Assembly (NCBI GenBank): GCA_035517655.1
Contig: DATIYJ010000029.1
Span: 18,230 to 82,229 of the forward strand
Length of the DNA stretch: 64,000 nucleotides
Direction of reading: 5' to 3'
From: Nitrospiria bacterium
GTDB lineage: Bacteria; Nitrospirota; Nitrospiria; JACQBZ01
Position numbers and translations under genes: made by a program. The first letter of the stretch is position 1. The number at the start of each line of letters is the position of its first letter. The notes beneath the pieces are model-generated. The model was not told the DNA's origin. It did no database searches and worked only from the letters and a program-made list of their open reading frames with translations. Positions 3,135-63,226 of this stretch are shown piece by piece.

Positions 3135-3308
3135 GGTTTTATCCTCCTTGTTGGGATGTTAACGCAACCAGTTTAACGGACGATTGTAAATTCTCCCTCA
3201 AGAGATCATTAATAGGATGTTAAATCTGATCGAAGCGGGCGGTTGATAAAATCGGCCTATCCATGTATCCTACGCCATATTAAATTATTTCCATGTGAGA
3301 AACCGGGA

Positions 3309-15937: not shown

Positions 15938-16011
15938 GGAGCGGGTCAAATTACGGGGAGATCAAGATCGGTTTAAACCTTGTAAATTTTGACCAGCGGT
16001 TGAAGAGCCGA

Positions 16012-24114: not shown

Positions 24115-25539
24115 TTATCTGGATATCAAGAATTGATTAAATTTCTGTAAACTCCCGTTGAAGATCGCAAGAAGAGCGCGCGCGAGCCCTTTCAGCCGCT
24201 TCCGGAATCGCACGAGCCGGGATTGACGAAGCGTCATGGATTCCGTCAACCGCTCGATGCGGTCGGCCACATCGCCAAAACCGCGTTCCATGAATCGCAC
24301 CCGCTGAAAACAATCCAGAGCTTCTTCGATCTTCCCCTGCTCTTCCAGAACGCATCCCATTTCATAACGCACACGAATGACCTCCCGGCCGGGCGCGGAA
24401 TAATCCGACAAGGCTCTTCTGAATAATTTCAGGGCCTCGTCGCTTCGACCCGCCTCCCGGTGGCAAAGGCCGGCCAGGAACGAGGCCTTCATCCAATAGG
24501 CCGGGTCCTCCGCGGCTTTTTCAAAGAAGGGAACGGCCTCGTCCCGCCGGCCCGCTTCCTTCAATTCCATCCCTTTTTGGTAGGCCATGCCGGAAGCTTT
24601 TCCCGAAGCCTCGGCCGACCCGGACCGTTCCGACCGATGAGTCGGCCATTCGCCGTTCCCCTCCTGATCCCGAACCGGGCGCTCTCTTCCATTCAGAAAG
24701 GAGGTTAGACCGCTATCTTTGACAAAGGGAATGATTCTCCCCGCGATCCGGTCCGAAGCCGCCTCGGCCACCAGCCGGGCCGAAATCCTCTCGGCCTGTT
24801 CCGCGAATCCGTAAACAAGAGAACGTTCGCAGGCCTGATTGATCAAGCGAGGAACGCCCCCCGAAATGCGATAGATCAGGGAAAACGCCTCCTCTTCGAA
24901 CAGCGGAATTTCTCTCCCGGCGGTTTTCACGCGATGATGGATATACCGATCGGTTTCTTCCGCATTCATCGGTTCCAGGTGATACTCCGCGTCGATCCGC
25001 TGAGCGAACTGGATCATGTCGGACCGGCGCAAGAGATCCCGGAGGCCGGGCTGCCCGGAAAGAACGATCTGCAGAATCGGGTCCTTGCCGGAATTCATGT
25101 TCGACAACAGCCTCAGTTCCTCCAGCATGGAGGGTTCCAGATTCTGAGCCTCGTCCACGACCAGGACCACCCGGCGTTTCAGGGCATGTTCCCGGTCCAA
25201 GAACTCCGCAAATTTTCGGTGGACGGATGCCTGATCCCGGCTCCGGGGCCGCAGATTAAAGATCCCCATCATCCACGGCATCAGGCTCTGAAAGTTGCCA
25301 TGGGTGTTCGAGATCAGACCGATGGTGAGCTCCTGTCCGGCTTCGCCCATCATCTTGCGCAACAGCAGGCTTTTGCCGGTCCCGATCTCGCCGGTAATGA
25401 CGATGAACCCGGATCGATTAAAGAGGCCGTATTCCAACAAACTCAGAGCCGCGCGATGGTTGGAACTGCGGTAAAAGAACTCGGGATCCGGAATAAGAGA
25501 AAACGGTTTCTCGCGAAATCCGTAAAACGATTCGTACAT
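24115..25539 (-). CDS. ExeA/GspA-like AAA ATPase with C-terminal TPR domain (putative secretion ATPase of PEP-CTERM/exosortase loci)
   Basis: 474 aa. MYESFYGFREKPFSLIPDPEFFYRSSNHRAALSLLEYGL...ITGEIGTGKS (Walker A). VVLVVDEAQNL. TPR-like C-terminus. I recall a PEP-CTERM-locus ATPase TIGRFAM subfamily with this architecture. Confidence 0.8.
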   Translation of the reverse strand: MYESFYGFREKPFSLIPDPEFFYRSSNHRAALSLLEYGLFNRSGFIVITGEIGTGKSLLLRKMMGEAGQELTIGLISNTHGNFQSLMPWMMGIFNLRPRSRDQASVHRKFAEFLDREHALKRRVVLVVDEAQNLEPSMLEELRLLSNMNSGKDPILQIVLSGQPGLRDLLRRSDMIQFAQRIDAEYHLEPMNAEETDRYIHHRVKTAGREIPLFEEEAFSLIYRISGGVPRLINQACERSLVYGFAEQAERISARLVAEAASDRIAGRIIPFVKDSGLTSFLNGRERPVRDQEGNGEWPTHRSERSGSAEASGKASGMAYQKGMELKEAGRRDEAVPFFEKAAEDPAYWMKASFLAGLCHREAGRSDEALKLFRRALSDYSAPGREVIRVRYEMGCVLEEQGKIEEALDCFQRVRFMERGFGDVADRIERLTESMTLRQSRLVRFRKRLKGLARALLAIFNGSLQKFNQFLISR

Positions 25540-32409: not shown

Positions 32410-32455
32410 CGTCTCGCTCCCTCGTTCCACAAAATACGCCACACCCAATCCCCTT

Positions 32456-34099: not shown

Positions 34100-35697
34100 T
34101 GCGGAATGAACCGGCCCAAAAGCGGACGGATCTCCCGCGTAAATTCCGCGAGAAGATGGTCGGCGTCCGAGTCGCTCGTCCCTTTGGCTACGGGAGCCGT
34201 CAAACGGATCAGGGCCCCGTCGGTTCTGTTTTTCGTTAAGGCATCCCAGAAAAGATAGAACTTGACCCGATACTCGTCGGTCAGAATTCTTCCCCGCTGC
34301 TGAAACCAGTAATAAACGACCTGCTTCTCGGTTCCCCTTTGGATGACCGCGCGGTTGACCGTCAAATTTTCCCCCGCCCGCGCCGCATCGATCCTCCTCT
34401 CCTCCAAGGCGGTAATCTCCCAGCCCCCTCCGGGAATGCAGGTCCGGGGGGAATGGGCCGATTGACCTTTCTTCTGCGATCGATAGTAAGCGATGTAAAG
34501 ATTAACGGGCGGACCGACGGGGCCCCGATAGTCCGCGAGGAGGTAGTCGTCAAACCGGAGGGCTTTTACGTATTCCTCCTCCATCGGGTAACTGTTTCCC
34601 GCCCAGCTTCCCAATTTCATCGGGAAGTCGGAAAACGTCGCCCGAGAAGGCGGAATCTCTTCTCCCGACACGAGCTGGGTCGAGGCCATGATCACCGGCA
34701 CGAAAAGAGCCAGGGACACGAGGTAGGCGGGGGAGGACAACAACGAGACCGGCGTCCGGGAAAGCGCGCCCTCTTTTCCGACGGCTTCCGCTTTCACCGG
34801 CGGAGGACCGAACCACTCGGCCAGGGAACGCCGTTTCCCCCGCGCGCCGATCCGGCCGAGGATCCACATTTCACCGAACAGAATCAGAAGACTGCAGACA
34901 AAGAGGAGCCAACCCGAGAAACTGTGGAAAAATCCTTCCGCAGGACCTCGTCCATAATGATCGACCAGCAGACCGGTCACGCCGATTCGAAACCCGTTAA
35001 GAAAAATAGCGATCGGAAAACTCGACAAAAAAAGGAACGCCCGCTTCCAGCGGGTCTCCCGGTAGAGATAGGCGCAGACCAAGGCCAGCGTGGACAGAGG
35101 GAAAAGATATCTCAAACCGCTGCAGGCCTCCGCAACCTGCAGCTGAATCGGTCCGAGGTCGATCACGTTTCCTTCCCGAAAGGCCGTCACTCCCATCAGT
35201 TTTAATATTCCCACCCCGAGTCCGGAAGAGATCAGCTGCAAGCGGGCTGAAAAACCCTGGTAGAGGAAGTCGGGAAGAGGAATCATGGTCAGGAGAAAAA
35301 AAACGGGGAAGGCGATCTCTTTCACGCCGCGTCCCCCGAGGGTCGAGAGCAACAGCCCGATCACAACCAAAAAAAGCGAAAGGTGGACCAGAACATAGAG
35401 GGTGGAAAGTTCCCCGATAAAATAAAGCCCCAAACCGGCCAGCACGAGCGGGAGCCCCCACCAGGTTCCGACCCGGCCCATCGTCCGCAGCCTCTCGCGC
35501 CGTTGCCAGATCAGGTAGAGGGAGATCAGCGGAACAAAGAAGCCGTAGCCGTAATTTTCATCGACGTACCACATTTTCACCATATAAGCGATTCCCTGGT
35601 GATAGATAATCCCCAGCAGGAGAACGGGAAGAGCCGCCATCGGCCAAAACCGGCGCTTGAACAGGATTTCCGCAACGCTGGTCGATACGAATTCCAT
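34096..35697 (-). CDS. Exosortase (Xrt family) fused to C-terminal EpsI-like domain
   Basis: 533 aa. Eight TM helices. Active-site Cys (VAEACSGLRYL) and conserved Arg (FLNGFRIG). C-terminal ~230 aa periplasmic domain resembles EpsI (…AYYRSQKKGQSAHSPRTCIPGGGWEI…). 4-bp overlap with the priming transferase. Confidence 0.85.
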   Translation of the reverse strand: MEFVSTSVAEILFKRRFWPMAALPVLLLGIIYHQGIAYMVKMWYVDENYGYGFFVPLISLYLIWQRRERLRTMGRVGTWWGLPLVLAGLGLYFIGELSTLYVLVHLSLFLVVIGLLLSTLGGRGVKEIAFPVFFLLTMIPLPDFLYQGFSARLQLISSGLGVGILKLMGVTAFREGNVIDLGPIQLQVAEACSGLRYLFPLSTLALVCAYLYRETRWKRAFLFLSSFPIAIFLNGFRIGVTGLLVDHYGRGPAEGFFHSFSGWLLFVCSLLILFGEMWILGRIGARGKRRSLAEWFGPPPVKAEAVGKEGALSRTPVSLLSSPAYLVSLALFVPVIMASTQLVSGEEIPPSRATFSDFPMKLGSWAGNSYPMEEEYVKALRFDDYLLADYRGPVGPPVNLYIAYYRSQKKGQSAHSPRTCIPGGGWEITALEERRIDAARAGENLTVNRAVIQRGTEKQVVYYWFQQRGRILTDEYRVKFYLFWDALTKNRTDGALIRLTAPVAKGTSDSDADHLLAEFTREIRPLLGRFIPH

Positions 35698-38333: not shown

Positions 38334-40550
38334 TCAGGTATCATCCCCCGCTGAATTCGCATCGGTCGCCGAGCGCCGGACCGCGTAAACCCGCCCCGTG
38401 CTCTGGCTCTTCATCGCCAAGAAGCAGGCCCGGGTGACGGCCTCGATCTCTTCGAAGGAGATCGCCGGACGGTCTCCCTGAAGAATAGCCCGGACAAAGC
38501 GGCTCATTTCCGATCGGAACCCTTTATCGCAGCGGCCCGTTTTGAAAACGGTTTTTCGGCCGGCGGCATAATATTCCGAGAGCCTGAAATCATCCAGGAC
38601 CAGGGACCGTCCGTCCCCGAACGCTTCAAACCGTTCCTTCGCCAACGCCGCGTCTCCGCCCGCGGCATAGACGACCGTGCCGATCGAGCCGTCTTCGAAG
38701 GCCAACGACAGATGGGTTTGATCCGCCGTGATGCCGGAGCGATGCTCCGCGATTCTACGGGCATGGACGGAGATCGGCCGCGCGCCGCAAAGGAACTGGA
38801 GGACGTCGATAAAATGGCAGGCCTCTCCTATGACGCGGCCTCCTCCCGCGGCCGGATCCTGACTCCAGTGTTCCGCGGGAAGGAGTCCGGCATTCACGCG
38901 GTAGAGCATCACGAGCGGGTTCCGTCGATCCCGGAAGAATTGCCTGGCTTCATCCAGATGGGCGGAGAAACGCCGGTTGAATCCAACGAACAAATGGAGC
39001 CCCTCTTGGGCCCGCTCGGCATAAACCGAAGCAATGATCTCCAACTCCTCCTCGGTCAGGCAAAGAGGTTTTTCCACGAAAACATGCTTCCCCGCCCGGA
39101 GCGCTTCCACCACCATCCGGCCGTGGCTGTCGTGCCGCGTTCCGATCAACACGGCGTTGATCGACGGATCCTTGCACACCTCCCGATAATCGGTCGTGCA
39201 ATAAGTCGCTTGAATCTTCTCGGTCAGGACCTTTCCGTGGAGGCCCGTCGCCGTGCAGACCGCGCGGACCGCGACCTCTTTCATGGACAGGAGATGGGGA
39301 AGGAGACGATCCCGGACATGGTTCCCCGCCCCGATGAGCCCGAGGTTCAGTCGGCTCAGAGGCTGATTCGGAGCGACCTGAATAATTCGCGCCGGCTGGG
39401 ACGCGCCGGCCGAGGGATAGGAGACAAGGATCCCGAGATAAGGCTCTTGTCCCTCCGTCATGAGCCGATAGGCCCGCTCGGAATCCTGAATGGCGTATCG
39501 GTGCGTCACCAAAGGTTTCAGACGGATCCTTCCCTGCTGGACCAGGTCGAGAAAAGCCCGCATGTTGCGGTTTTCGGTCCATCGGACATAACCGTAGGGG
39601 TAGTCGTGTCCCTTCTCCTCGTATTCGCCGTCGTAGCGACCCGGCCCGTAAGACATGGACAAGCGCAGGTCCAATTCCTTCTTATAATAGGGCTCGCGGG
39701 GCAGGGTCATCCCCACCGCGCCCACCACGACAACGCGTCCTTTCTTTCGCGAGATCTCTCCGGCGACCTCGACCGGACCGTTTTCCTTGGTACTGGCCGT
39801 GATCAGCGCGGCGTCGACGCCGTGCCCGGACGTAAAAGCGGCGGCTGCGTCGACCAAGGCGTCGGGAAGCGCCGCCGAGTCCGCGCCGAAGGTCCTGGCC
39901 ATCTCCAGTCTGTCGGGGTCAAGATCCGAAGCCAGCACGAAACATCCCGAGGCTTTTAACAATTGGACGGTCATCTGGCCCAAAAGACCGAGACCGATCA
40001 CCGCCACACGATCGCCCAAACGAGGCTCGGTCTGACGGACCGCCTGAAGCGCAATCGCGCCCAGGGCCACGAAGGAGGCATCCTCAAAATCGACTCCGGT
40101 CGGAATCTTAACGCAAAGGTTCTTTGGAACATAAACGACCTCGGCATGCGAGGCATAATTCTGTCCCGCACAGGCCACACCCTCGCCCACCGAAAGTCCG
40201 CTCACCTTCTCCCCCACGCTCAGTACGGTGCCGGCGCAGCTGTAGCCGAGGGCGGCCGGGGAATCGAGCCGATCGAGGGCCATTCTCAGCGTATCGATCA
40301 GACCGTCTTTCCGGGCCTGATTCAGCATTTTCCGGACCATCTCGGGGCGATCGAGGGCCTTGCCCACCAGGCTTTTCTGCGCCATCTGCACGGTGGTTTT
40401 CTCCGTTCCGGCACTGATCAGGGAAAAGCGATTGGCCACCAAAATTCCGCCGGGACGCAAGGTCGGAGCGGGAAGTTCGTCGACCTTCAACACGCCTGTA
40501 CGATAATTTTGAACGATCTGCTTCATAGGAATCGATATTGGCACACACAC
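38334..40550 (-). CDS. Bi-domain oxidoreductase: N-terminal Zn-dependent MDR alcohol dehydrogenase fold plus C-terminal Gfo/Idh/MocA NAD(P)-binding oxidoreductase
   Basis: 738 aa. MDR half: GVACAGQNYASHAE, VAVIGLGLLGQMTVQLLKASG. Gfo/Idh/MocA half: LNLGLIGAGNHVRDRLLPHL...EKPLCLTEEE. Confidence 0.75.
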   Translation of the reverse strand: MCVPISIPMKQIVQNYRTGVLKVDELPAPTLRPGGILVANRFSLISAGTEKTTVQMAQKSLVGKALDRPEMVRKMLNQARKDGLIDTLRMALDRLDSPAALGYSCAGTVLSVGEKVSGLSVGEGVACAGQNYASHAEVVYVPKNLCVKIPTGVDFEDASFVALGAIALQAVRQTEPRLGDRVAVIGLGLLGQMTVQLLKASGCFVLASDLDPDRLEMARTFGADSAALPDALVDAAAAFTSGHGVDAALITASTKENGPVEVAGEISRKKGRVVVVGAVGMTLPREPYYKKELDLRLSMSYGPGRYDGEYEEKGHDYPYGYVRWTENRNMRAFLDLVQQGRIRLKPLVTHRYAIQDSERAYRLMTEGQEPYLGILVSYPSAGASQPARIIQVAPNQPLSRLNLGLIGAGNHVRDRLLPHLLSMKEVAVRAVCTATGLHGKVLTEKIQATYCTTDYREVCKDPSINAVLIGTRHDSHGRMVVEALRAGKHVFVEKPLCLTEEELEIIASVYAERAQEGLHLFVGFNRRFSAHLDEARQFFRDRRNPLVMLYRVNAGLLPAEHWSQDPAAGGGRVIGEACHFIDVLQFLCGARPISVHARRIAEHRSGITADQTHLSLAFEDGSIGTVVYAAGGDAALAKERFEAFGDGRSLVLDDFRLSEYYAAGRKTVFKTGRCDKGFRSEMSRFVRAILQGDRPAISFEEIEAVTRACFLAMKSQSTGRVYAVRRSATDANSAGDDT

Positions 40551-40743
40551 ACCAAAAAACCTAATGACGACGGCACCGCGGGTTTCATGGAAGGGAACTT
40601 ATCACGCCGTCAATCACGGCATAATCAAGGTCATGTAAATTCTCTGTTAACTCTTATCAATCCAAGAAATTTTTCCGATTCAGAATTGGAGGGAGACCCA
40701 AGGGGCCGAAGGAAAGGATCTCTTTGAAAACGTGGTTACGCGA

Positions 40744-56158: not shown

Positions 56159-57535
56159 TTACTGAGCGCAGGGATGCGCACCGGCCTTCCACTGCACCGG
56201 GCCCGCATCCGCATTCTTGAAGGTATACATGTCGGAGCCCGCGACCCAGAAGGCCCCGGCCGGCAGAAGCGCGACCGTGGCCGACGATGACGCGTTCGTG
56301 ACAAAATCGGACATCAACGCGGTCTGATCCGCCGAGATGCCCGGGTCCGAGTAGTTCCTTACGTTCAAGCGTTCCCCGGCCCAGTAGAGGTACATACCGC
56401 AACGGACGTTCATCTTATGATCGGGCAGGGAAGCGTCGTTTGCAAAAAGGCCGTCGAGTTTGATCGGGTACGCAGGAGCCGTAACCACGCTCACGTCGGC
56501 ATCTACGTAGCCGATGCCCCTCGGATGAGCCGGCCGGCCCAAGCCCGCGTTTCCTCTCATGCAGTCCTGGACATCCTGAGTGCTTTGTCCGAAGTAGACT
56601 CCATCGGCCGCGAGGGTCAGATTCGTCGACCCGCTTGGGGTCTCGGTGGCGTCTTTCATGACGGTTTGATCAAGCGCCGCCTTGGAACCGGATCCCGCCG
56701 CGCGAAGACAGAGGGTGATCGGCGAGGTCGCATCCGGAGTGCCGGGCGTGGTCACGTCCGTCACCAGACCGACTTGAGACCAGTCGGTGACGTTCCGGCT
56801 GAAGATCGCCTCGATTTCGGTACGGTTCAAGCCCGTCACGGGCACCAGAACTCCGCCGACGTTTTTCTTGACATGCTCTCCCACGATGAACTGCCACGGC
56901 ACGATCGCCGCCTGGTTGCTGGTCAGCATGCTCTGGTCCAACGGCTTCACGACCGTGGTGATCGGCCCGACTTGGCCGAAGGAACTTCCGGCCACGTCCG
57001 CCGCCCCCATGGTCACCGGAAGATCTCCCGCGACGATCGTATTGCAGCCGGTGTATTCATAATACTGTTTGCCGTCGGCGGCCCGGGTCAAGAGGTTCGG
57101 TCCCGATGTGCAGGTGCTCGCAAGGTGATCCAGATAGTGCATGTACGAATGCGCCGTGTCGGATGTCGGATTCTGAAGTTTCAGGATCCCATCGGAAGAG
57201 CCCGTGGCCGAGTACCGGATGATGGTCGGCACGCCGGCCCGCGATCCGGTCCAGACATGGAGTTTGCCGGATGTGATGACCGGGCTTGCAATGTCACCGT
57301 TTACGTAATGAATCGGAAGATTTGGGGCCTGGTCCAGCAGGTTTAATGGAACCTGCGTCATGAACGGTGTGGCCGCGGAAGATCCGCCGGCATTTAACGC
57401 AACGCACGAGGTGGGTTGCGGTCCTGTACATTGCTCGACCTGGGCCGACGCCGGCGAGGCGTTCATCCAAAGAAGGCCGGCGAGCAAGCCGCCTACAACG
57501 GCCAGTTTGTTCAATTTCATCGGTTTCATCTGCAT
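56159..57535 (-). CDS. Secreted protein with PstS-like (periplasmic phosphate-binding, PBP-like_2) domain, embedded among cargo genes
   Basis: 458 aa. Signal peptide. NAGGSSAATPF and ATGSSDGILKL resemble PstS GSS/GSG phosphate-binding loops. No PEP-CTERM tail. Confidence 0.5.
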   Translation of the reverse strand: MQMKPMKLNKLAVVGGLLAGLLWMNASPASAQVEQCTGPQPTSCVALNAGGSSAATPFMTQVPLNLLDQAPNLPIHYVNGDIASPVITSGKLHVWTGSRAGVPTIIRYSATGSSDGILKLQNPTSDTAHSYMHYLDHLASTCTSGPNLLTRAADGKQYYEYTGCNTIVAGDLPVTMGAADVAGSSFGQVGPITTVVKPLDQSMLTSNQAAIVPWQFIVGEHVKKNVGGVLVPVTGLNRTEIEAIFSRNVTDWSQVGLVTDVTTPGTPDATSPITLCLRAAGSGSKAALDQTVMKDATETPSGSTNLTLAADGVYFGQSTQDVQDCMRGNAGLGRPAHPRGIGYVDADVSVVTAPAYPIKLDGLFANDASLPDHKMNVRCGMYLYWAGERLNVRNYSDPGISADQTALMSDFVTNASSSATVALLPAGAFWVAGSDMYTFKNADAGPVQWKAGAHPCAQ

Positions 57536-57597
57536 TTCTCCTTTTTAGTTTATTGAACCCTTTTTGATGGCTCGTTATGTTTTAATGGTTGAACGTT

Positions 57598-58338
57598 TTA
57601 GACGGACATCAGATTGCGACGGGCCACACCCACCAGCCCGACCAAACCCGTGCCGAACAACACCATGGCGGCCGGGATCGGCACCGGAGCAATCGCATTC
57701 CCGGAGATCGTAAGCAAGCCGCCCGCCGTCAACGTCGCATGTCCCAGCTGGGCGATGGCATCGGAAGAATAATCCGCCGAAATAATGCCCAAAGTGCCCC
57801 CGAGCCCCGTCTGCATGGAGACCGGGAAACTGCCGGCCAGCGTGCCGCTCGTACCGAAATTGCTTGTGAACGAATTGGGGTCCGAAGCGGGAAGAAGCTT
57901 CGAGGAAAGTCCGTCTCCTGAACTGAGCGCGGCCCAAACGGCGTCCGTGTTCCAGGCGTTCTGCGGAGCCACTTGCGACAACTGGGCCGCCGTGTAGGCG
58001 CTGGCGTCCTGGCTCGACCCGGCCACAAGATAGGTCGGATCACCCGTGCTCGGATTATAGTAAAAACCGATCAAGGCCCAAGCCGGAGAATTCGTCCCTT
58101 GTATCGCGGACATGGTGGAAGAATCGATGGTAAAGTTCGTCGACGCTCCCGGTGTGAGCAACGGAGTGGCCGCGCCGATATTGTCGATGAACTCGGTGTT
58201 ATTGCCGAAGACGGCCAAGACCAGGTCGCCGTTATTGATATCAACGGCGAGGGCTTTTCCGTTAAAGCCCGCAACGAACATGACAGCCAAGGTAAAAATC
58301 CCGAGGACTGTTTGTTTCAACTTCGTTTTGTAATTCAT
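57598..58338 (-). CDS. PEP-CTERM-type (VPIP variant) exosortase cargo protein
   Basis: Signal MNYKTKLKQTVLGIFTLAVMFVAG. C-terminus ...IAPVPIPAAMVLFGTGLVGLVGVARRNLMSV. RBS aaggag. Confidence 0.75.
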   Translation of the reverse strand: MNYKTKLKQTVLGIFTLAVMFVAGFNGKALAVDINNGDLVLAVFGNNTEFIDNIGAATPLLTPGASTNFTIDSSTMSAIQGTNSPAWALIGFYYNPSTGDPTYLVAGSSQDASAYTAAQLSQVAPQNAWNTDAVWAALSSGDGLSSKLLPASDPNSFTSNFGTSGTLAGSFPVSMQTGLGGTLGIISADYSSDAIAQLGHATLTAGGLLTISGNAIAPVPIPAAMVLFGTGLVGLVGVARRNLMSV

Positions 58339-58387
58339 TGTCTTCTCCTTATAATAAGGATTACGGTTACGTACCCGGCTCGTCCGA

Positions 58388-58513
58388 AGACGCCCCCCGG
58401 TCGCCTTCCCTTCCGAGCCGCTTCTTCCTCCGGCTGAGCTTCCTTGCTCAACCGGGGCGATTATCTCATCGCAGGCATTAAAAACCGATCAAGATGAAAT
58501 AAAATGAAGTAAA
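58388..58513 (-). promoter_or_regulatory. Structured GGA-rich 5' leader/promoter of cargo gene 57598-58338 (copy 1 of duplicated ~125 bp element)
   Basis: Minus-strand reading: TGAGATAAT (extended -10-like) ... CGCCCCGG-ttgagcaaggaagctcAGCCGgaggaagaagCGGCTcggaagggaaggcga-CCGGGGGGCG, then ~60 nt, RBS and ATG. GGA motifs lie in the loop of the inner hairpin. Confidence 0.5.
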
Positions 58514-58627
58514 GTTTTTATGATTTAATGTTTCCTCCTTTCCGTTTGATTCATGGTTGAGGGTTGCGCAATCGGCACGGTCCGGCGCGGCCGACTTTAC
58601 TGAAACCTTCCGCCGCTTGATAAGGCG

Positions 58628-58753
58628 TCCCCCCGGCCGCCCTCCCTTCCGAGCCGCTTCTTCCTACGGCTGAGCTTCCTTGCTCAACCTGGGCGATTAT
58701 CTCACCGCACGCATTAAGAACGGATCAAGATGAAATAAAATGAAGTAAAACTG
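58628..58753 (-). repeat. Copy 2 of the ~125 bp leader element (~90% identical to 58388-58513), followed by a decayed start (ATG at 58554, 9-codon mini-ORF MNQTERRKH)
   Basis: Direct repeat seen by eye. Downstream ATGAATCAAACGGAA resembles the true cargo start ATGAATTACAAAACGAAG but has no RBS and stops after 9 codons. Confidence 0.6.
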
Positions 58754-59119
58754 TTCCCCGTTTTCTTTGATCAAATATCAGATGAAGCCCGTCTCTCCAT
58801 CGACCCCAATCCGCATCGCGGGGGAACGACTCGGACCCGGCGTCGAAGGAGAGACCGGATGACACGCTTCGCGCGGAAGCGAACAAAGTCTATGACGAAC
58901 AAATTAAAGCCCGGTCAAGATCCGGTTAAATCGGATTCAATTTCCCGGAGGGCCGTAGATGGGAGGAGGACGGAGGATACGGGAGCTTTCAAAAAAGGTC
59001 GACGTCGATCGTTCTCAAATATTACTCTTTTGTAACACGCTCTTGAGATCAAGGTAACAAGACCCTTCTATGCTGTCGGACAAATTACAGGCGATATTCA
59101 ATTCAGAACCGGACACCCC

Positions 59120-59827
59120 ATGCCGAAAAAAGTTCTGATCATCGAAGACGATCCGGACACTTCCAGCCTCGTCGCACATTACCTGAAGCAGGAAGGATAC
59201 TCTGTCGGCACGGCTTCCGATGGAGTGATGGGGCTTAAACAGGTCCGGAAAAACTCTCCGGATCTGTTGATTCTGGACATCATCCTTCCTCACATGGACG
59301 GTTTCGAGGTTTGCAAAAAACTGCGCCAAGACGCGGCCACATCGCGATTGCCCATTTTGATGCTCACCGCCCTGGGCGAGGAATCGGACAAGGTCGTCGG
59401 GCTGGAATTGGGAACGGACGACTATGTCACCAAACCCTTCAGCCCCAAAGAACTCGTGGCCCGCGTCAAGGGACTCTTGCGGCGCTACGAGCACAGGGAG
59501 ATCGGGACCTTGTCGTCCTTCCACAAATACGGGCCCCTCATCTTGGACGAGGCGCGCCAATCGGTCAAGGTAAACGGCCAAGGGGTTCGTCTCACGGCCA
59601 AGGAGTTCGCTCTCTTGGCGCAGCTTTTAAAAAGAAAGGGAAGGGTGCTGACTCGTCAAATGCTTCTCGAAACGGTCTGGGGGTATGAATCTCAAGTGAC
59701 CACCCGAACCATCGAGGTCCATATCTACGGACTCCGACAAAAGATCCCATTCCTGACCAAAGCCATTCAGACCGTCGTGTCTTCCGGATACAAGCTCTTG
59801 GATGAAGGAAATCAGGGAACGGTCTGA
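59120..59827 (+). CDS. OmpR/PhoB-family response regulator (receiver plus winged-helix)
   Basis: 235 aa. KVLIIEDDPD...DLLILDIILPHMDGFEV (receiver Asp). C-terminal trans_reg_C (…TRTIEVHIYGLRQKI…). No histidine kinase adjacent in the window. Confidence 0.85.
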   Translation: MPKKVLIIEDDPDTSSLVAHYLKQEGYSVGTASDGVMGLKQVRKNSPDLLILDIILPHMDGFEVCKKLRQDAATSRLPILMLTALGEESDKVVGLELGTDDYVTKPFSPKELVARVKGLLRRYEHREIGTLSSFHKYGPLILDEARQSVKVNGQGVRLTAKEFALLAQLLKRKGRVLTRQMLLETVWGYESQVTTRTIEVHIYGLRQKIPFLTKAIQTVVSSGYKLLDEGNQGTV

Positions 59828-59919
59828 CGCCGAGGACTTCTCCGGGAGCTTCCTGTGAAGCCCGCTCCGGACCGCTCTCATACAGCCTGTGAGAATGAGT
59901 ACAATCAGGAGGCGGGTCA

Positions 59920-61860
59920 ATGAAGTGCGGCAAAGCGCGTCTTGGGCTGGTGACGAGCATTCTTATTATCGGCGGGACCGCCGTCGTCTTGAATAGCTGC
60001 GGCCACGAAGGGGACGGATCGAGTAGCCGCGGCGGTACGAGTACAACCCCGATCGCCGATGCGGCCGAAGGCAGCGCGGCGGCCGGCTCGGCACAGGCTG
60101 CGGCTTCGGTTGGAACAGGAATTTCAGACCTGGCCGACTCACTCGGCCACTTGGGCGGGAGTTCGCTAGGCCTAGATCTTCCTTCAAAACCGATCAACCC
60201 GCTGACCGCGCCGGACTCCAGCCTGGCCAAAATGGCGACCAAGGCCCGAAAGGCGGCCGCCTCGAAAGTTATCTCCATCGCAGCGACCCGTCTAAAGGCG
60301 GCCGCGACGGGTTTCAAATCGGCGCTGACGGCGGTTTCTCCCGGCGGCGCCTGCGGCGACGGCGGAAGCTGGACGGCCTCCGGCACGGCGGACATAAGCG
60401 GAACGTTTGACGTCGTCGTGACCTTGGCCGGCTGCCGCGAAGACGGCGATCAGATGGACGGCGAGATGCATATAACCGGGAACGCCTCTTCGACCGGCGT
60501 CAACGTAAACGCCGCCCTGGGTGACGATTCCAGTTTACCGACAACCGATCTCGTCATCCTGACCTTTAATGACGCAACTTATTCCAGCCTGGTAGGACGT
60601 TTCAAAACCGCCATGGATCTACAAGACACCTCTCTTTGCGGGGTCGGCTCTTTTACAGACGGCGCCTGCACCGCGGGCTCTTATTCCCTCGCGGCGAGCG
60701 GGACGGCCTCTTATGACGACTATACCCTGACGCCGGTCCAGACGATCAATCTGTCATTGAGCCGTTTTACCGATAGCGGTTCCTTCTCGATGAACACCGG
60801 CTCCACCGCGGAGACGGACACCTACGACGACACCCTGGGAGGGAGGATCGATGAGTCCTGGACCGATCCTACGGACCGTTCGCCTCACGGCGTGACGGTC
60901 GGTTTTTCCAACTTCAACGTCCACGTCGAGGACGACATCGCCCCGTCGGCGCCGCTCGTGTCCCGGAGCTCGGTTAACTCGTTTGATCGTTTCACCTCTT
61001 TCTCCGGAACGGTCTCGATCGATTTTACGCCGGATTCGGATTGTCCCTTTGAAGGGACTTTCAGTCTCGTCACGGACTCGCCGTTGCATCGAACGAGCCC
61101 CGACCGTTGCCCGATAGGCGGCCATCTGACCATAAACGGCCGTACGACGCTTACGTATAACAGCGACGGCAGCGTGGATGTGGCAACGGGAGCCGACACG
61201 ATGCATTATGATTCCTGCCGCGAAATGGACGCCGTCTGCCCATTCGAGGACTTTCAAGCCTCCGGAGGCCGGCTGTCCGGGAGCTACGGGACACCGGTCA
61301 GCGGGAACGGTTTTCTGGTCACGTTGAGTTGGAACGACTTCGACCTCAACGGGTCACCCGGACCGACCGATGCATCGGGAAGCCAAACCAGCGACATGGA
61401 TCTTCATGTGGGTTATTACAGCAACCCCAACCCGACCGCCGGCCCCGCGGAGGCCGAAATATCCTGGGATACGGGCGATAATCTCATGGTGGGCTATAAC
61501 AGCACGCGCTTCGGCGCCGCCACGGCGGTTCTTGATTTCGACGATTCACAGGGGAAGGGTCCGGAACATATCACGGTGACCGGGCTTCCGGCCGGTTACT
61601 ACGTCATCGCCGTTGACAGCTTTGACCTGCATCTGGCCGCGAGCGTCGCGGTCAACACAAGCGTAACGATCGGAGGAAGCATCTACACGTTTCCCCCGCA
61701 TACTTTTACCACGGCGGACCATGACGCGAGCGAACCTTCAACGAGCGTGCCCTCGGCCTGGTACCGTGTGACCGATCTGCAATGCCTATCGGACGGCCAT
61801 TGCACCTTTGTAACGCCGAATCCCGATCTTCAAGTGGAAGACAGCCCTTTCCAATATTAA
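59920..61860 (+). CDS. Large secreted lipoprotein of unknown function (C-terminal beta-sandwich-like region)
   Basis: 646 aa. Signal MKCGKARLGLVTSILIIGGTAVVLNSCG (lipobox). S/T/G/D-rich. Multiple Cys pairs. Confidence 0.6.
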   Translation: MKCGKARLGLVTSILIIGGTAVVLNSCGHEGDGSSSRGGTSTTPIADAAEGSAAAGSAQAAASVGTGISDLADSLGHLGGSSLGLDLPSKPINPLTAPDSSLAKMATKARKAAASKVISIAATRLKAAATGFKSALTAVSPGGACGDGGSWTASGTADISGTFDVVVTLAGCREDGDQMDGEMHITGNASSTGVNVNAALGDDSSLPTTDLVILTFNDATYSSLVGRFKTAMDLQDTSLCGVGSFTDGACTAGSYSLAASGTASYDDYTLTPVQTINLSLSRFTDSGSFSMNTGSTAETDTYDDTLGGRIDESWTDPTDRSPHGVTVGFSNFNVHVEDDIAPSAPLVSRSSVNSFDRFTSFSGTVSIDFTPDSDCPFEGTFSLVTDSPLHRTSPDRCPIGGHLTINGRTTLTYNSDGSVDVATGADTMHYDSCREMDAVCPFEDFQASGGRLSGSYGTPVSGNGFLVTLSWNDFDLNGSPGPTDASGSQTSDMDLHVGYYSNPNPTAGPAEAEISWDTGDNLMVGYNSTRFGAATAVLDFDDSQGKGPEHITVTGLPAGYYVIAVDSFDLHLAASVAVNTSVTIGGSIYTFPPHTFTTADHDASEPSTSVPSAWYRVTDLQCLSDGHCTFVTPNPDLQVEDSPFQY

Positions 61861-62076: not shown

Positions 62077-62084
62077 AAAAATTT

Positions 62085-62157
62085 AGCGGCGGAGGGATTT
62101 GAACCCCCGGCCAAGAGATTATGATTCTCCTGCTCTACCACTGAGCTACGCCGCCGT
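62085..62157 (-). tRNA. tRNA with CAT anticodon (tRNA-Met elongator, or tRNA-Ile2 read after lysidine modification)
   Basis: Reverse complement reads GGCGGCG-TAGCTCAGTGGTAGAGC-AGGAGAATCATAATCTCTT-GGCC-GGGGGTTCAAATCCCTC-CGCCGCT. Cloverleaf with 7-bp acceptor, D-arm, anticodon loop AT-CAT-AA and T-arm GGTTCAAATCC. CCA is not encoded. Confidence 0.8.
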
Positions 62158-62278: not shown

Positions 62279-63226
62279 CTATCCCCCGAGCAGCTCCAGC
62301 GTTTCTTTAAGACCCCGGTTCACGCAGGTGAAAATCGGCGTATCGCGCTGGGTGTAGAGCCGTCCCTGGGTTTCGCGGAGATCCATCAGCAGATTGAGGA
62401 AATCCTCCGGTTTGTCCGTCTCAAACGCCAGCGCAAACTCCTGATCGTCCAGCCCGAACGAGTAGGTCGTGTTCAACTTAACCGAGGGATACTTGTTGCC
62501 GACGATGATATGCTCGTCCATCATTCCCTGACGCGTGTGCTTTGTCAAAAGGTACCACTCGGGGGTCTTCACGAACGGATACATAAAGAGGTACTTGGCC
62601 TTGCCGGGGATGATGCGCAAGCGCTGCTCTTCGTGCTCCGGATTGATTTTATCCACGTAGATCGAGCGCTTGGTGATGGCAAGGTACGAATACGGCGTCG
62701 TTAAATAATTCCCAAGCTTTGTGGCGAAAAGCTTGGCGGTGAACTCCTGCATGTACTCGAGCGAGTAACCGATCCGCCACATCATGAAATCCACATCGCC
62801 CCGCGTGCCCATGGTGGAATAGGTCATCACCATGAACTGCTTCCGGTCCTTGGTGTATTCTTCCACGACCTGGCTGAACTCTTTCTTGCCCTGTTCCCGT
62901 TCGGACTGTGGAAGCCGTCTCCAAAGCGGATCGACCTTGTAGAAGAGAAAGCTGACGTATTGCTGGGCCGCCGGGCGTTTCGGCGCCGTCTGGGTTTCTT
63001 CCTGGGCCTGCGCGGCCGGAGCTCCCCCCTGCTCCCGCGCCGACTTGGCTTGAGCCACGACGGACGGATCGATCATGGTAATGCCCCGGCTCTTGGCAAA
63101 TTCCTCCACGCCGCGCATGGCCGATTTTCGCACGATGAACGGCACGTTTTGCATCTGAGCCCGGCCTTCCTCCGTCCATTCCGGCTGAACGGGCGCCGCG
63201 GTCTTGATCTCTTCATGGTCGCTCAT
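62279..63226 (-). CDS. hemQ: Chlorite-dismutase-family protein, HemQ-like coproheme decarboxylase, with ~90 aa N-terminal extension
   Basis: 315 aa. C-terminal ~230 aa carries HemQ hallmarks (YVSFLFYKVDPLWRRLPQSEREQGKKEF, MVMTYSTMG, SFGLDDQEFALAFETDKPEDFLNLLMDLRETQGRLYTQRDTPIFTCV). N-terminal extension is unassigned. Confidence 0.75.
   Translation of the reverse strand: MSDHEEIKTAAPVQPEWTEEGRAQMQNVPFIVRKSAMRGVEEFAKSRGITMIDPSVVAQAKSAREQGGAPAAQAQEETQTAPKRPAAQQYVSFLFYKVDPLWRRLPQSEREQGKKEFSQVVEEYTKDRKQFMVMTYSTMGTRGDVDFMMWRIGYSLEYMQEFTAKLFATKLGNYLTTPYSYLAITKRSIYVDKINPEHEEQRLRIIPGKAKYLFMYPFVKTPEWYLLTKHTRQGMMDEHIIVGNKYPSVKLNTTYSFGLDDQEFALAFETDKPEDFLNLLMDLRETQGRLYTQRDTPIFTCVNRGLKETLELLGG

What the first reader, a model, noticed from the sequence alone, without database searches (positions are those of the whole stretch)
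58388..58753. Duplicated ~125 bp GGA-rich structured leader upstream of cargo gene; second copy precedes a decayed start codon
Two direct repeats (58388-58513 and 58628-58753) are ~90% identical and lie ~240 bp apart. Read on the minus strand, copy 1 is the 5' UTR of the VPIP-CTERM gene at 57598-58338. It has an extended -10-like TGAGATAAT and a long-range stem CGCCCCGG...CCGGGGGGCG. That stem encloses a hairpin AGCCG-GAGGAAGAAG-CGGCU with GGA in the loop, plus further GGA motifs (GGAAGGGAAGG). This resembles CsrA/RsmA binding sites or a conserved regulatory box for cargo genes. Copy 2 is followed by ATGAATCAAACGGAA, resembling the real start ATGAATTACAAAACG, but it has no RBS and stops after 9 codons. 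Copy 2 therefore looks like the footprint of a deleted paralogue, or a leader retained as an sRNA or CsrA sponge.
Basis: seen in the sequence. Interest (0 to 1): 0.65.

Follow-up and report, generated by a model that had tools for sequence, protein, structure and literature searches.

The report
Tandem PHO-box-like promoter-leader cassettes
The two ~121-bp repeats are two of three tandem copies of a complete promoter plus folded 5' leader, probably switched on by the response regulator encoded next door, in front of an exosortase-cargo and polysaccharide operon of an uncultured Nitrospiria bacterium; it is a tidy regulatory region of a known kind, not a CsrA site or a dead gene remnant.

Summary
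The repeat is real: 58393-58513 vs 58629-58749, 121 nt, 93% identical, 236 bp apart. It is not a recent relic. All eight related metagenomic lineages, with cargo protein identity down to 45%, keep both copies between a divergent OmpR/PhoB-family response-regulator gene and the VPLPA-CTERM cargo gene.

Each copy is a full cassette:
- four hexamers tT[A/G/T]Ayy phased at exactly 11 bp, like a double PHO box;
- 15-16 nt after the start of the last hexamer, an extended -10 (TGAGAnAAT);
- an RNA that would start with a 10-bp hairpin (HP1), followed by a second hairpin (HP2) and a strong Shine-Dalgarno sequence.

A third, diverged cassette lies upstream, and a fourth array faces the regulator gene. 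The same phased array precedes a phosphoesterase gene 55 kb away, and it is conserved there in two other lineages. This points to a phosphate-starvation-type regulon.

GGA motifs are neither conserved in loops nor enriched beyond composition. The "decayed ATG" is not the positional homologue of the start codon.

No binding, transcription start or phosphate response was tested. Verdict: a new member of a known kind, of moderate interest.

The parts
58476..58514 (-). Copy 1 (c1): array of four 11-bp-phased hexamers r1-r4 (CTTTAC / TTTATT / TTGATC / TTAATG), the proposed binding region for two dimers of an OmpR/PhoB-family regulator
   Evidence: Phasing table; pattern hit 58478-58513; the most conserved segment of the cassette at 80-84% mean pairwise identity
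58460..58468 (-). c1 extended -10, TGAGATAAT (hexamer GATAAT at 58465..58460). It starts 16 nt after the start of r4. There is no good -35 at 17-bp spacing.
   Evidence: In the 14 copies aligned without gaps, A-11 and T-7 are kept and the third position varies (T/A/G/C); the other two copies (L025 c1, L021 c1) keep an AATAAT after a small indel.
58430..58455 (-). c1 HP1: 10-bp stem CCGGUUGAGC / GCUCAGCCGG with a 6-nt loop. It begins 5 nt after the -10, so it would sit at the very 5' end of the predicted transcript.
   Evidence: MFE and centroid; alifold on A4; 84% of cells paired over 16 copies, with weak covariation
58377..58420 (-). c1 HP2: base stem CGGCUCG / CGAGCCG with an inner stem and an apical GGGG loop (G-run at 58398..58393)
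   Evidence: The base stem is kept in 15 of 15 full copies, with almost only wobble-compatible changes.
58336..58350 (-). c1 Shine-Dalgarno AAGGAG (58350..58345) and the ATG (58338..58336) of the VPLPA-CTERM gene
58712..58750 (-). Copy 2 (c2): phased array r1-r4 (TTTTAC / TTTATT / TTGATC / TTAATG)
   Evidence: hit 58714-58749
58696..58704 (-). c2 extended -10, TGAGATAAT
   Evidence: the hexamer is 87.5% conserved across lineages
58666..58691 (-). c2 HP1
58573..58656 (-). c2 HP2: the same base stem (CGGCUCGG / CCGUGCCG, one U-U mismatch), with about 60 nt between the aligned arm segments in this lineage, against 4-5 nt in five other lineages
58527..58543 (-). c2 orphan Shine-Dalgarno-like GGAAAGGAGG (58543..58534), followed by ATT (58529..58527) where copy 1 has ATG. 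No lineage has a start codon here.
   Evidence: the comparison with STAB-SD draws on PMC4113751
58887..58940 (-). Module B: a third, diverged cassette. Array TTGAAT / TTAACC / TTGACC / TTAATT (58940..58902) and -10-like TAGACT (58892..58887).
   Evidence: nhmmer E = 4e-11; exact pattern hit 58904-58939
58788..58880 (-). Block C: the leader of module B. A small hairpin GCUUCCGCGCGAAGC (58880..58866) starts about 6-7 nt after B's -10. It is followed by a ~70-nt hairpin (58858..58788) with apical loop UUCCCCC (58826..58820).
   Evidence: -54.6 kcal/mol, z = -4.1. The sequence is nearly invariant in 8 lineages and the variation is mostly G-U compatible.
59021..59074 (+). Module A on the plus strand: array ATTACT / GTAACA / TTGAGA / GTAACA (59021-59059) and -10-like TATGCT (59069-59074), 45 nt before the regulator's ATG. 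The predicted role is autoregulation.
   Evidence: E = 2.5e-6; exact hit 59022-59057
59120..59827 (+). Divergent OmpR/PhoB-family response regulator (REC + winged helix), the proposed cognate activator
   Evidence: PF00072 + PF00486. TIGR02154 PhoB scores 219.7 bits, under the 296.2 cut-off. The closest solved structures are RegX3, RpaA and MtrA. It is 84-88% identical in all loci whose stored DNA reaches that far.
57598..58338 (-). VPLPA/VPIP-CTERM cargo gene, the first gene of the operon. It is followed by a PBP_like_2 gene, two more VP[IL]P-CTERM genes, Wzy_C and an AsnB-type amidotransferase.
   Evidence: the exosortase EpsH + DUF3485 is at 34096-35697(-)
3170..3223 (-). The same kind of phased array (TTAACA / TTAATG / TTGAGG / TTTACA) plus TAAACT -10, about 35 nt before the ATG of phosphoesterase gene 1602-3134(-). 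This is a second predicted regulon member.
   Evidence: conserved upstream of orthologues in L119 and L123

Best explanation
Copies 1 and 2 are two complete, tandemly duplicated promoter-plus-leader cassettes. A third, older and more diverged cassette (module B with Block C) lies upstream. All three drive the VPLPA-CTERM cargo and exopolysaccharide operon.

Shown by sequence analysis:
- Each cassette starts with four hexamers tT[A/G/T]Ayy spaced at exactly 11 bp.
- 15-16 nt after the start of the last hexamer there is a sigma-70-type -10 hexamer. In copies 1 and 2 it is an extended -10. No usable -35 is present.

Inferred mechanism:
- This is the architecture of PHO-box / OmpR-PhoB-family class II promoters.
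- The phosphorylated response regulator encoded divergently at 59120-59827 binds the array head-to-tail as two dimers and recruits RNA polymerase.
- A fourth array in front of its own gene gives positive autoregulation.
- The same array precedes a phosphoesterase gene, and the operon carries a PstS-superfamily binding-protein gene. The signal is therefore most likely phosphate limitation. This step is the least certain.

Inferred at RNA level:
- Transcription would start about 7 nt after the -10. Each RNA would then begin with a stable 5'-terminal hairpin (HP1, or the small hairpin of Block C), followed by a second conserved hairpin.
- The most likely role of these hairpins is to protect the mRNA from 5'-end-dependent decay.
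- Transcripts from the distal promoters would read through the proximal cassette. The orphan, very strong Shine-Dalgarno sequence kept after copy 2 without any start codon may act as a ribosome-binding stabiliser of the STAB-SD type.

Net effect: graded, very high expression of the cargo operon under control of the regulator.
For: 1. The duplication is ancient and maintained.
- nhmmer finds two copies, 183-236 bp apart, in all 8 lineages. Cargo protein identity in these lineages falls to 45-52%.
- The c1/c2 tree groups copies mostly by orthology.
- Only the window lineage has homogenised its copies: 91-93% identity, against about 70-80% in the other lineages.

2. The array is real.
- Over 31 modules x 4 repeats, position 2 is T in 121 of 124 and position 4 is A in 113 of 124.
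- The pattern TDA-N8-TDA-N7-TTGA-N8-TWA hits the window 4 times exactly (0.00 expected) and 8 times with one mismatch (0.17 expected).

3. The four module types share one layout. c1, c2, B and A all read (G)AGAAAyT..TCTTGA-N8-TAAY-N10/11-(-10).

4. The -10 behaves like a -10. Its A-11 and T-7 are conserved and its third position is free.

5. It matches known PHO boxes.
- The published definition is 11-nt direct repeat units, 7 conserved plus 4 less conserved (PMC4415409).
- The E. coli boxes sit 10 bp upstream of the -10, and the Synechocystis SphR box is CTTAACCT (PMC1906773).
- r1 here is CTTAACTT in most lineages.

6. A regulator is at hand.
- An OmpR/PhoB-family gene is adjacent and 84-88% conserved in all seven element-bearing lineages whose stored DNA reaches that far; the eighth contig (L034) ends in the intergenic region.
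- Its best NCBIfam match is PhoB, and its closest solved structure is RegX3, a phosphate-response regulator.

7. There is a second target.
- An array plus -10 precedes a PF04185 phosphoesterase ('phospholipase C / alkaline phosphatase family') gene.
- It recurs with different hexamer spellings before orthologues in L119 and L123.

8. RNA evidence.
- The HP1 + HP2 fold has z = -5.5 and 88% of the ensemble.
- The HP2 base stem is kept in 15 of 15 copies, with changes that are G-U compatible only on the minus strand.
- HP1 and the Block C hairpin both start 5-7 nt after their -10.

9. The orphan SD is GAAAGGAGG in six lineages and AAGGAGGTGA in L025. Both are complementary to the canonical 16S 3' end. 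L009 keeps only AGGAGG.
Against: - There is no experimental or transcriptomic evidence. Transcription starts, regulator binding and the phosphate response are all inferred.
- The regulator scores below the PhoB equivalog cut-off and has no adjacent histidine kinase, so it may sense something other than phosphate. No pstSCAB or phoU lies in the window to serve as a positive control.
- The binding protein is only weakly PstS-like: PBP_like_2 35.5 bits, and PDB PstS at E = 0.42.
- L121/L122, which carry a phosphoesterase orthologue, lack the array.
- Covariation in HP1 is weak (18-32 of 500 shuffles reach the observed values). There is no two-sided covariation in Block C. The structure rests mainly on thermodynamics and conservation.
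- The stabiliser role of the hairpins and the orphan SD is by analogy only. RNase J or RNase E content of this organism was not checked.
- All sequences come from one narrow uncultured clade, so the copies are not independent samples.
Confidence: 0.6

Rival explanations
1. CsrA/RsmA system. The leader binds CsrA through GGA motifs in hairpin loops and over the Shine-Dalgarno sequence. Copy 2 is transcribed as a CsrA-titrating sponge RNA.
For: The leaders carry 5-10 GGA each, several of them in unpaired regions. The SD regions (GGAAAGGAG) contain GGA. In the window lineage both hairpin loops carry GGA.
Against: - GGA sits in the HP1 loop in only 6 of 16 copies. L017, L021 and L026 have A-rich loops.
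- GGA counts do not exceed dinucleotide-preserving shuffles in 14 of 16 leaders.
- There is no terminator after copy 2.
- The most conserved parts are DNA-level promoter motifs.
- Whether csrA is present in this organism is unknown.
Confidence: 0.05
2. The conserved hairpins are a cis-regulatory RNA: a riboswitch, a protein-binding leader, or an sRNA target. It is present in tandem and controls translation or elongation rather than only stability. The promoter motifs are merely carried along.
For: - HP1 and HP2 are kept in both copies, even though copy 2 precedes no ORF.
- The fold is very well defined, with 88% of the ensemble.
- The 3' arm of HP1 and the 5' arm of HP2 are complementary (AGCCG/CGGCU), which allows an alternative pairing.
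- G-runs in HP2 are present in every copy.
- There is no Rfam match, so it would be an undescribed class.
Against: - The HP2 interior varies from 4 to 60 nt, and L026 copy 1 lacks HP2 altogether. That is unlike a ligand pocket.
- The loops are not conserved in sequence.
- No terminator or SD-sequestering helix is conserved. The region before the SD is A-rich and unpaired.
- Covariation is weak.
Confidence: 0.12
3. The box is an ECF-sigma (RpoE-like) promoter. GAAACTT would be the -35 and TCTTGA the -10. Transcription would start just after TCTTGA, and TGAGATAAT would be part of the RNA.
For: GAAACTT-N17-TCTTGA resembles the sigma-E type GGAACTT-N16-TCTGA (from memory). Short inverted repeats often flank TGAGATAAT, for example GCGA..TCGC and GTGA..TCAC, and could form an RNA hairpin.
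Against: - The AAC of the supposed -35 is not kept in modules A and B (AAATTG, AAATTA), nor before the phosphoesterase gene.
- The spacer is 1-2 nt longer than usual.
- This model does not explain the conserved TAAY or the TAnnnT hexamer at a fixed 15-16 nt in all module types, nor the strict 11-bp phasing.
- No ECF sigma gene was seen in the ORFs scanned.
Confidence: 0.07
4. Module B with Block C, and perhaps copy 2, are separate small RNAs under the same regulator. They would act on the cargo mRNA through loop-loop pairing. The C-rich apical loop of Block C (UUCCCCC) or its CUCUCC arm would pair with the G-run in HP2 or with the SD.
For: - The C5 loop is invariant and G4-6 runs are present in the HP2 loops of all lineages.
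- Block C is nearly invariant and very stable.
- It is followed by a moderately U-rich stretch. One terminator-like site lies at 58801..58781.
Against: - Both loops are invariant, so no covariation test is possible.
- The tail is a poor terminator, and one terminator-like hit is what chance gives (1.4 expected).
- Complementarity between G-runs and C-runs is cheap in 58% GC DNA.
Confidence: 0.08
5. Copy 2 is a non-functional relic of a tandem duplication or of a deleted paralogue, kept similar to copy 1 only by gene conversion.
For: - In the window lineage the copies are 91-93% identical, which indicates recent homogenisation.
- Similarity extends a few codons past the position of the start codon (ATT vs ATG).
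- The start codon is lost in every lineage.
Against: - In the other lineages the copies are only 53-85% identical and cluster mostly by orthology, so conversion is not general.
- Copy 2 is retained in all 8 lineages. Its box, -10, HP1, HP2 base stem and orphan SD are each conserved.
Confidence: 0.03

Closest known systems
PHO-box promoters of PhoB/PhoP/SphR/RegX3 (OmpR-PhoB-family class II activation)
   Same: - Tandem head-to-tail direct repeat units of 11 nt, with a conserved core and a less conserved linker.
- Four units, as in a double PHO box, ending a fixed 8-10 bp before a sigma-70 -10 and with no proper -35.
- A regulator gene with its own box.
- A box before a phosphoesterase gene.
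- r1 (CTTAACTT) is close to the SphR box CTTAACCT.
   Different: - The core here is TT[A/G/T]Ayy, with alternating TTAAC-like and TTGAT-like units.
- The regulator is below the PhoB equivalog cut-off and has no neighbouring kinase.
- The main target is an exosortase cargo / EPS operon.
- The whole promoter-leader unit is present three times in tandem.
- Binding and the phosphate response are untested.
PrsK/PrsR/PrsT sigma-54 cis-regulatory site upstream of PEP-CTERM genes in Proteobacteria (Haft et al. 2006, PMC1569441)
   Same: A large conserved non-coding region lies in front of a PEP-CTERM-type cargo gene, with a dedicated response regulator. That paper explicitly notes that other, undescribed upstream motifs must exist outside Proteobacteria.
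   Different: There is no -24/-12 GG-N10-GC motif in the 781-nt intergenic region. The regulator is of the OmpR/PhoB type, not an NtrC-type enhancer-binding protein, and the promoters are sigma-70 type.
5'-terminal stabiliser hairpins (the ompA 5' UTR type) and the STAB-SD of cry3A mRNA
   Same: A stable stem-loop starts at or next to +1 of an mRNA for an abundant exported protein. A strong SD-like sequence in the long 5' UTR is followed by no start codon, and it is complementary to the 16S 3' end, as described for STAB-SD (PMC4113751).
   Different: This is analogy only. No half-life data exist. The organism is a Nitrospiria bacterium whose RNase content was not examined. Here the orphan SD arose by duplication of the real ribosome-binding site.
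Csr/Rsm leaders and sponge RNAs (CsrB, RsmY/Z)
   Same: A purine-rich RNA with several GGA, some in loops. There is a duplicated unit without an ORF, under response-regulator control.
   Different: GGA is neither conserved in loops nor enriched. There is no terminator. The regulator is not of the GacA/UvrY type. The conserved core is a DNA repeat array.

Membership tests
PHO-box / OmpR-PhoB-family dependent promoter | Two or more direct repeat units with 11-nt periodicity (conserved core plus less conserved linker) | tested here: met
   Four units per module in 31 modules; T at position 2 in 121 of 124 and A at position 4 in 113 of 124. The pattern is far above chance. The definition is taken from PMC4415409.
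PHO-box / OmpR-PhoB-family dependent promoter | The array abuts the -35 position, about 10 bp upstream of a sigma-70 -10 hexamer (TAN3T), in place of a -35 | tested here: met
   The start of r4 is 15-16 nt before GAnAAT / TAGACT / TATGCT / TAAACT, so the 8-bp unit ends 7-8 bp before the -10. The hexamer at 17-bp spacing is TCGGTT. Reference: PMC1906773.
PHO-box / OmpR-PhoB-family dependent promoter | A cognate OmpR/PhoB-family regulator, typically autoregulated | tested here: met
   An adjacent REC + Trans_reg_C gene, conserved in synteny in the seven lineages whose stored DNA reaches that far. Module A lies in its own upstream region. It is not a PhoB equivalog (219.7 bits against a 296.2 cut-off).
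PHO-box / OmpR-PhoB-family dependent promoter | The same box upstream of phosphate-scavenging genes | tested here: inconclusive
   It is present before a PF04185 phosphoesterase gene in the window and in L119 and L123, and absent in L121/L122. No pst or phoU genes were available to test.
PHO-box / OmpR-PhoB-family dependent promoter | Binding by the phosphorylated regulator and induction under phosphate limitation | not testable with these tools
   Needs EMSA or footprinting and expression data.
CsrA/RsmA-binding leader or sponge RNA | Several conserved GGA motifs presented in hairpin loops | tested here: not met
   The HP1 loop has GGA in 6 of 16 copies. GGA is not enriched over shuffles in 14 of 16 leaders.
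CsrA/RsmA-binding leader or sponge RNA | A discrete small RNA ending at a terminator (for the sponge reading of copy 2) | tested here: not met
   There is no terminator-like site between copy 2 and copy 1.
CsrA/RsmA-binding leader or sponge RNA | A csrA gene in the genome | not tested
   Only 64 kb of the genome was available.
Any Rfam family | A score at or above the family's gathering threshold | tested here: not met
   Only a tRNA in the whole window. In 57500-59200 nothing scores better than E = 2.7, and all those hits are implausible families.
PrsR / sigma-54 PEP-CTERM upstream site | A -24 GG / -12 GC sigma-54 promoter plus an enhancer site | tested here: not met
   A regex scan of the intergenic region on both strands gave no TGGCAC-N5-TTGC-like site.
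STAB-SD-type 5' stabiliser | An SD-like sequence in the 5' UTR, complementary to the 16S 3' end, that does not start translation | tested here: met
   GAAAGGAGG or AAGGAGGTGA follows copy 2 in 7 of 8 lineages (L009 keeps only AGGAGG), and no start codon follows within 5-10 nt in any lineage. The 16S sequence is assumed to be canonical.
STAB-SD-type 5' stabiliser | It protects the downstream mRNA from 5'-3' decay | not testable with these tools
   Needs half-life measurements.

The most novel reading that the evidence does not exclude
The 781-nt intergenic region is a self-contained riboregulatory circuit. The same regulator fires three tandem promoters whose RNAs interact with one another. The invariant C-rich apical loop and CUCUCC arm of Block C would pair with the G-run in the HP2 apical loop, or with the SD regions of the copy 2 and copy 1 leaders. 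The distal transcripts would then tune translation or decay of the cargo mRNA as a cis-encoded feed-forward loop. This would be an undescribed leader RNA class for exosortase cargo genes.
Probability: 0.1. Interest if true: 0.65.

Novelty: new member of a known kind. Interest (0 to 1): 0.4.

Why it matters
Haft et al. (2006) noted that the long conserved regions upstream of PEP-CTERM genes outside Proteobacteria have no known regulator. Here a concrete candidate emerges for an uncultured Nitrospiria clade related to Ca. Manganitrophaceae: an OmpR/PhoB-type regulator and a defined 44-bp operator.

The operator also precedes a phosphoesterase gene. That gives a testable link between phosphate limitation and production of exosortase cargo and exopolysaccharide, which means floc or biofilm matrix.

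The operator pattern can be used directly to predict the regulon in the full genome.

The locus is also a clean example of an ancient tandem duplication of a whole promoter-leader-RBS unit. It has been kept for a long time and, in one lineage, homogenised by gene conversion.

Tried and rejected
- **Rfam.** A gathering-threshold scan of the window and an E <= 10 scan of 57500-59200 gave nothing relevant.
- **Box in representative genomes.** An exact-pattern scan for the box gave 0 hits.
- **Regulator in representative genomes.** The best relative is 58% identical (Nitrospira sp. RSF12). None of the 80 loci carries the element, the cargo gene or the PBP gene. The system is seen only in metagenome contigs.
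- **Box in metagenomes.** The scan gave 23 loci. 14 are unrelated AT-rich sequences matching by chance. The other 9 are all orthologous loci, so the full box spelling is not used before other genes.
Not in the MFE, the centroid or the consensus structure.
- **CsrA.** No loop conservation and no GGA enrichment.
- **Sigma-54 promoter.** Absent.
- **Small ORF after copy 2.** The ATG is not conserved, and no consistent start follows the orphan SD.
- **Small ORF in Block C.** ATGGAGAGA... is not conserved; it reads ACG or GAC in L025 and L034.
- **Contig ends as transcription starts.** L004, L005, L007 and L008 end inside the repeats. This was rejected because assemblers break at repeats.
- **ECF-sigma reading of the box.** Judged less likely (see rivals).
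- **Phased A/T tracts as mere DNA curvature.** Judged less likely, because specific positions (T2, A4, TTGA in r3) are conserved rather than A/T content alone.
Full report
**1. The observation**

The repeat finder reports one long direct repeat in 57000-60000: 58393-58513 and 58629-58749, 121 nt, 93% identical, 236 bp start to start. The pairwise alignment shows that similarity stops within a few bases of those limits. blastn of either copy against the whole window finds only these two.

On the minus strand copy 1 ends 55 nt before the ATG (58338) of a 246-aa ORF. Its C-terminus, APVPIPAAMVLFGTGLVGLVGVARR, matches the VPLPA-CTERM sorting domain just under the cut-off (23.9 vs 25.35 bits).

The operon continues as follows:
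- a PBP_like_2 (PstS-superfamily) protein;
- two more VP[IL]P-CTERM proteins;
- a Wzy_C polymerase and an AsnB-type amidotransferase;
- glycosyltransferases and a flippase;
- further on, the exosortase (EpsH + DUF3485, 34096-35697), Wza/Wzz/tyrosine-kinase-like genes and a two-partner secretion pair.

Divergently, at 59120, lies an OmpR/PhoB-family response regulator. Its best NCBIfam match is PhoB, 219.7 bits against a cut-off of 296.2. The closest solved relatives are RegX3, RpaA and MtrA. The intergenic region is 781 nt. Rfam finds nothing there.

**2. The duplication is old and kept**

The cargo protein is named by NCBI as coming from a Nitrospiria MAG, and a relative as Ca. Manganitrophaceae. 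I fetched contigs through its homologues. I also scanned metagenome contigs for the most conserved 21-mer of the element. Together these gave eight distinct lineages: window/L033, L018 = L006, L009, L025, L017 = L014 = L036, L021, L034 and L026.

A profile of the element finds exactly two copies, 183-236 bp apart, in every one of them. Wherever the stored DNA reaches that far, the copies lie between the regulator gene (84-88% aa identity) and the cargo gene (45-83%) plus the PBP gene.

A tree of the 16 copies groups distal copies with distal copies, and several proximal copies with proximal, across lineages. Only in the window lineage do the two copies pair with each other, at 91-93% against about 70-80% in the other lineages.

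Representative genomes hold neither the box nor an orthologue of the regulator. The best relative there is 58% identical, and its locus has no element.

**3. Anatomy at DNA level**

Aligning the eight intergenic regions (A3) shows that nearly the whole region is conserved. It is about as conserved as the cargo CDS, or more so at larger distances.

Anchoring on the invariant TCTTGA reveals four modules per lineage with one layout:

(G)AGAAAyT ... TCTTGA - N8 - TAAY - N10/11 - (-10-like hexamer)

The four modules are copy 1, copy 2, a third module B about 190 bp further upstream (-10 TAGACT), and module A on the other strand, 45 nt before the regulator's ATG (-10 TATGCT).

Written in register, each module is four hexamers spaced at exactly 11 bp:

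| Module | r1 | r2 | r3 | r4 |
|---|---|---|---|---|
| c1/c2 | CTTAAC | TTTATT | TTGATC | TTAAyn |
| B | TTGATC | TTAACA | TTGACG | TTAATT |
| A | ATTACT | GTAACA | TTGAGG | GTAACA |

Pooled over 124 eleven-mers, position 2 is T in 121 and position 4 is A in 113. The last hexamer starts 15-16 nt before the -10.

The -10 in copies 1 and 2 is TGAGAnAAT. Its A-11, A-9, A-8 and T-7 are kept while the third position takes all four bases, as expected of a real -10. The hexamer at the normal -35 spacing is TCGGTT.

This is the published architecture of PHO boxes. They consist of 11-nt direct repeat units with 7 conserved and 4 less conserved positions (PMC4415409). In E. coli they are located 10 bp upstream of the -10, and in Synechocystis the unit is CTTAACCT (PMC1906773).

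**4. The box elsewhere**

The degenerate pattern TDA-N8-TDA-N7-TTGA-N8-TWA has four exact hits in the window, against 0.00 expected. With one mismatch it has eight, against 0.17 expected.

Besides c1, c2, B and A, the hits are:
- **3187-3222(-).** The array is followed at the right distance by TAAACT and lies about 35 nt before the ATG of gene 1602-3134. That gene is a PF04185 phosphoesterase (262 bits), which sources call phospholipase C or alkaline phosphatase family protein.
- **24115-24150(-).** This lies before a 184-aa gene and the ShlB/TPS pair, but with a poor -10.
- **15951-15986(-).** This lies just after the TonB stop.
- **40614-40649(-).** This lies before gene 38334-40550 and is weak.

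Upstream of phosphoesterase orthologues, the array with a TAnnnT at the right distance recurs in L119 (89% aa; TTAATG / TTAATC / TTGAGG / TTAACA + TAAAGT). It also recurs in L123 (81% aa, different neighbours; TTAACA / TTGAAA / TTGAGG / GTAACA + TACGAT). It is absent from L121/L122.

A secreted phosphoesterase is a classical Pho-regulon member (PMC4415409). The array's presence there and before the regulator's own gene, together with a PstS-superfamily gene in the operon, makes phosphate limitation the most likely signal. This remains inference. The regulator is not a PhoB equivalog, it has no adjacent kinase, and the PBP is only distantly PstS-like.

**5. Anatomy at RNA level**

Folding each of the 16 leaders gives the same two hairpins. 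HP1 is CCGGUUGAGC-loop-GCUCAGCCGG. HP2 has base stem CGGCUCG(G)/(C)CGAGCCG.

For copy 1 of the window the fold is -49.5 kcal/mol, with 88% of the ensemble, z = -5.5 and 0 of 200 shuffles as good. The plus strand gives -37.3 kcal/mol. Copy 2 gives z = -1.7, because in this lineage far more sequence (about 60 nt between the aligned arm segments) separates the arms of HP2.

RNAalifold on the seven full proximal leaders returns HP1 and HP2. Over all 16 copies, 84% of HP1 cells pair, against 21-42% when the partner is slid. Covariation is modest: 4 pairs have double changes, and 18-32 of 500 shuffles reach the observed values.

The HP2 base stem is intact in 13 of 15 copies and has one mismatch in two. 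Its variation is almost entirely C-G to U-G or A-U to G-U, which pairs only on the minus strand. The interior of HP2 ranges from 4 to 60 nt, and L026 copy 1 lacks HP2 altogether.

HP1 begins 5 nt after the -10, so a start about 7 nt downstream would put the stem at the very 5' end of the RNA. Module B has the same design. Its small hairpin GCUUCCGCGCGAAGC begins 6-7 nt after TAGACT and is followed by a ~70-nt hairpin. Together these form Block C (58880..58788): -54.6 kcal/mol, z = -4.1, nearly invariant.

Downstream of HP2 the proximal leader is A-rich and unpaired up to a strong SD.

**6. What copy 2 keeps**

After copy 2's HP2 comes GGAAAGGAGG in six lineages and AAGGAGGTGA in L025; L009 keeps only AGGAGG. 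The first two are 9-10 nt complementary to the canonical 16S 3' end. No start codon follows at the right distance in any lineage.

In the window the next bases, ACATTAAATCATAAAAAC, still align with ACAATGAATTACAAAAC of the real gene. The duplicated unit therefore once ran from the box to the first codons, and ATG is now ATT (58529..58527).

A conserved, very strong, orphan SD in a long 5' UTR is what was described as STAB-SD in cry3A mRNA. There a bound 30S subunit blocks 5'-3' decay (PMC4113751). I propose the same role here, by analogy only.

**7. CsrA**

GGA occurs in the HP1 loop in 6 of 16 copies. The remaining loops are A-rich. GGA counts (5-10 per leader) match dinucleotide-preserving shuffles in 14 of 16 leaders, which are 62-72% purine. 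No terminator-like site separates copy 2 from copy 1. The idea is not excluded, but nothing specific supports it.

**8. Mechanism proposed**

- *Shown:* there are three tandem cassettes, each with an 11-bp-phased four-unit array, a -10, and a leader with two conserved hairpins. A fourth array faces the regulator gene. The same array lies before a phosphoesterase gene. All are conserved across lineages.
- *Inferred:* the neighbouring OmpR/PhoB-type regulator, once phosphorylated, binds each array as two tandem dimers. It activates sigma-70 RNA polymerase at all three promoters and at its own.
- *Inferred:* each transcript starts with a protective hairpin. Distal transcripts read through, and the orphan SD helps to stabilise them.
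- *Predicted outcome:* strong, graded induction of the cargo/EPS operon, most likely when phosphate is scarce.
- *Alternatives:* a cis-regulatory RNA, an ECF promoter, separate small RNAs that pair through the C5 and G-run loops, CsrA, and an inert relic. They are listed with their tests.

**9. Comparison and novelty**

The DNA part meets every sequence-level criterion of a PHO-box-type promoter. It fails the sigma-54/PrsR criterion described for proteobacterial PEP-CTERM genes (PMC1569441). The RNA part matches no Rfam family and works, at most, like known 5' stabilisers.

This is a new member of a known kind. It has two less common features. The first is the long-term retention of three tandem promoter-leader units. 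The second is the link between a PhoB-like regulon and an exosortase cargo operon in Nitrospiria.

Noticed in passing
window 58788-58880 (-): Block C is a nearly invariant ~95-nt element. It has a small hairpin GCUUCCGCGCGAAGC and a ~70-nt hairpin with apical loop UUCCCCC (-54.6 kcal/mol, z = -4.1). There is no Rfam match. It may be the leader of module B or a separate small RNA.
   Followed up: partly
window 3170-3223 (-), gene 1602-3134 (-): A four-unit 11-bp-phased array plus TAAACT lies before a PF04185 phosphoesterase gene. It is conserved before orthologues in L119 and L123 but not in L121/L122.
   Followed up: yes
window 24115-24150 (-): An exact match to the phased-array pattern lies about 65 nt before the ATG (24050) of a 184-aa gene with no family match. 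That gene heads a ShlB-type transporter / TPS exoprotein operon. The -10 at the expected distance is poor (ACGATT).
   Followed up: partly
window 15951-16020 (-): An array-like sequence with one mismatch lies in the short gap between the convergent ends of the TonB gene and the P-type ATPase gene. TCTTGATCGGCTCTTCAAC, inside the end of tonB, resembles the box of copies 1 and 2. In L012 the cargo operon sits directly after TPS-ExbB-ExbD-TonB, so this may be a remnant of an older gene order.
   Followed up: no
window 56159-57535 (-): The second gene of the operon encodes a 458-aa protein with a PBP_like_2 (PstS-superfamily) domain. It is conserved at 72-93% in the element-bearing lineages and is much better conserved than the cargo protein. 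Such a protein is unusual in an exosortase cargo operon.
   Followed up: partly
L011 2090-3000: This 69%-identical cargo gene has no adjacent regulator gene and only one, diverged module (TTTACT / TTTAAC / TTGATG / TTCACA) with an HP1/HP2-like leader. The sequence at about 2160-2250 looks like a tRNA gene by eye (not scanned with ARAGORN), and AT-rich DNA follows it. This suggests a rearrangement or insertion.
   Followed up: partly
window 59920-61860 (+): A 646-aa predicted lipoprotein (LNSC lipobox) with no family match follows the regulator gene where a histidine kinase would be expected.
   Followed up: no
window 62279-63226 (-) and 62084-62155 (-): A chlorite-dismutase/HemQ-like protein carries an N-terminal PCP_red (protochlorophyllide reductase 57 kD subunit) domain, which is an odd fusion. 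A tRNA gene lies next to it.
   Followed up: no
window 34096-35697 (-): The exosortase is a fusion of EpsH (PF09721) with DUF3485 (EpsI-like). A large TPR protein gene follows it at 30022-32481.
   Followed up: no
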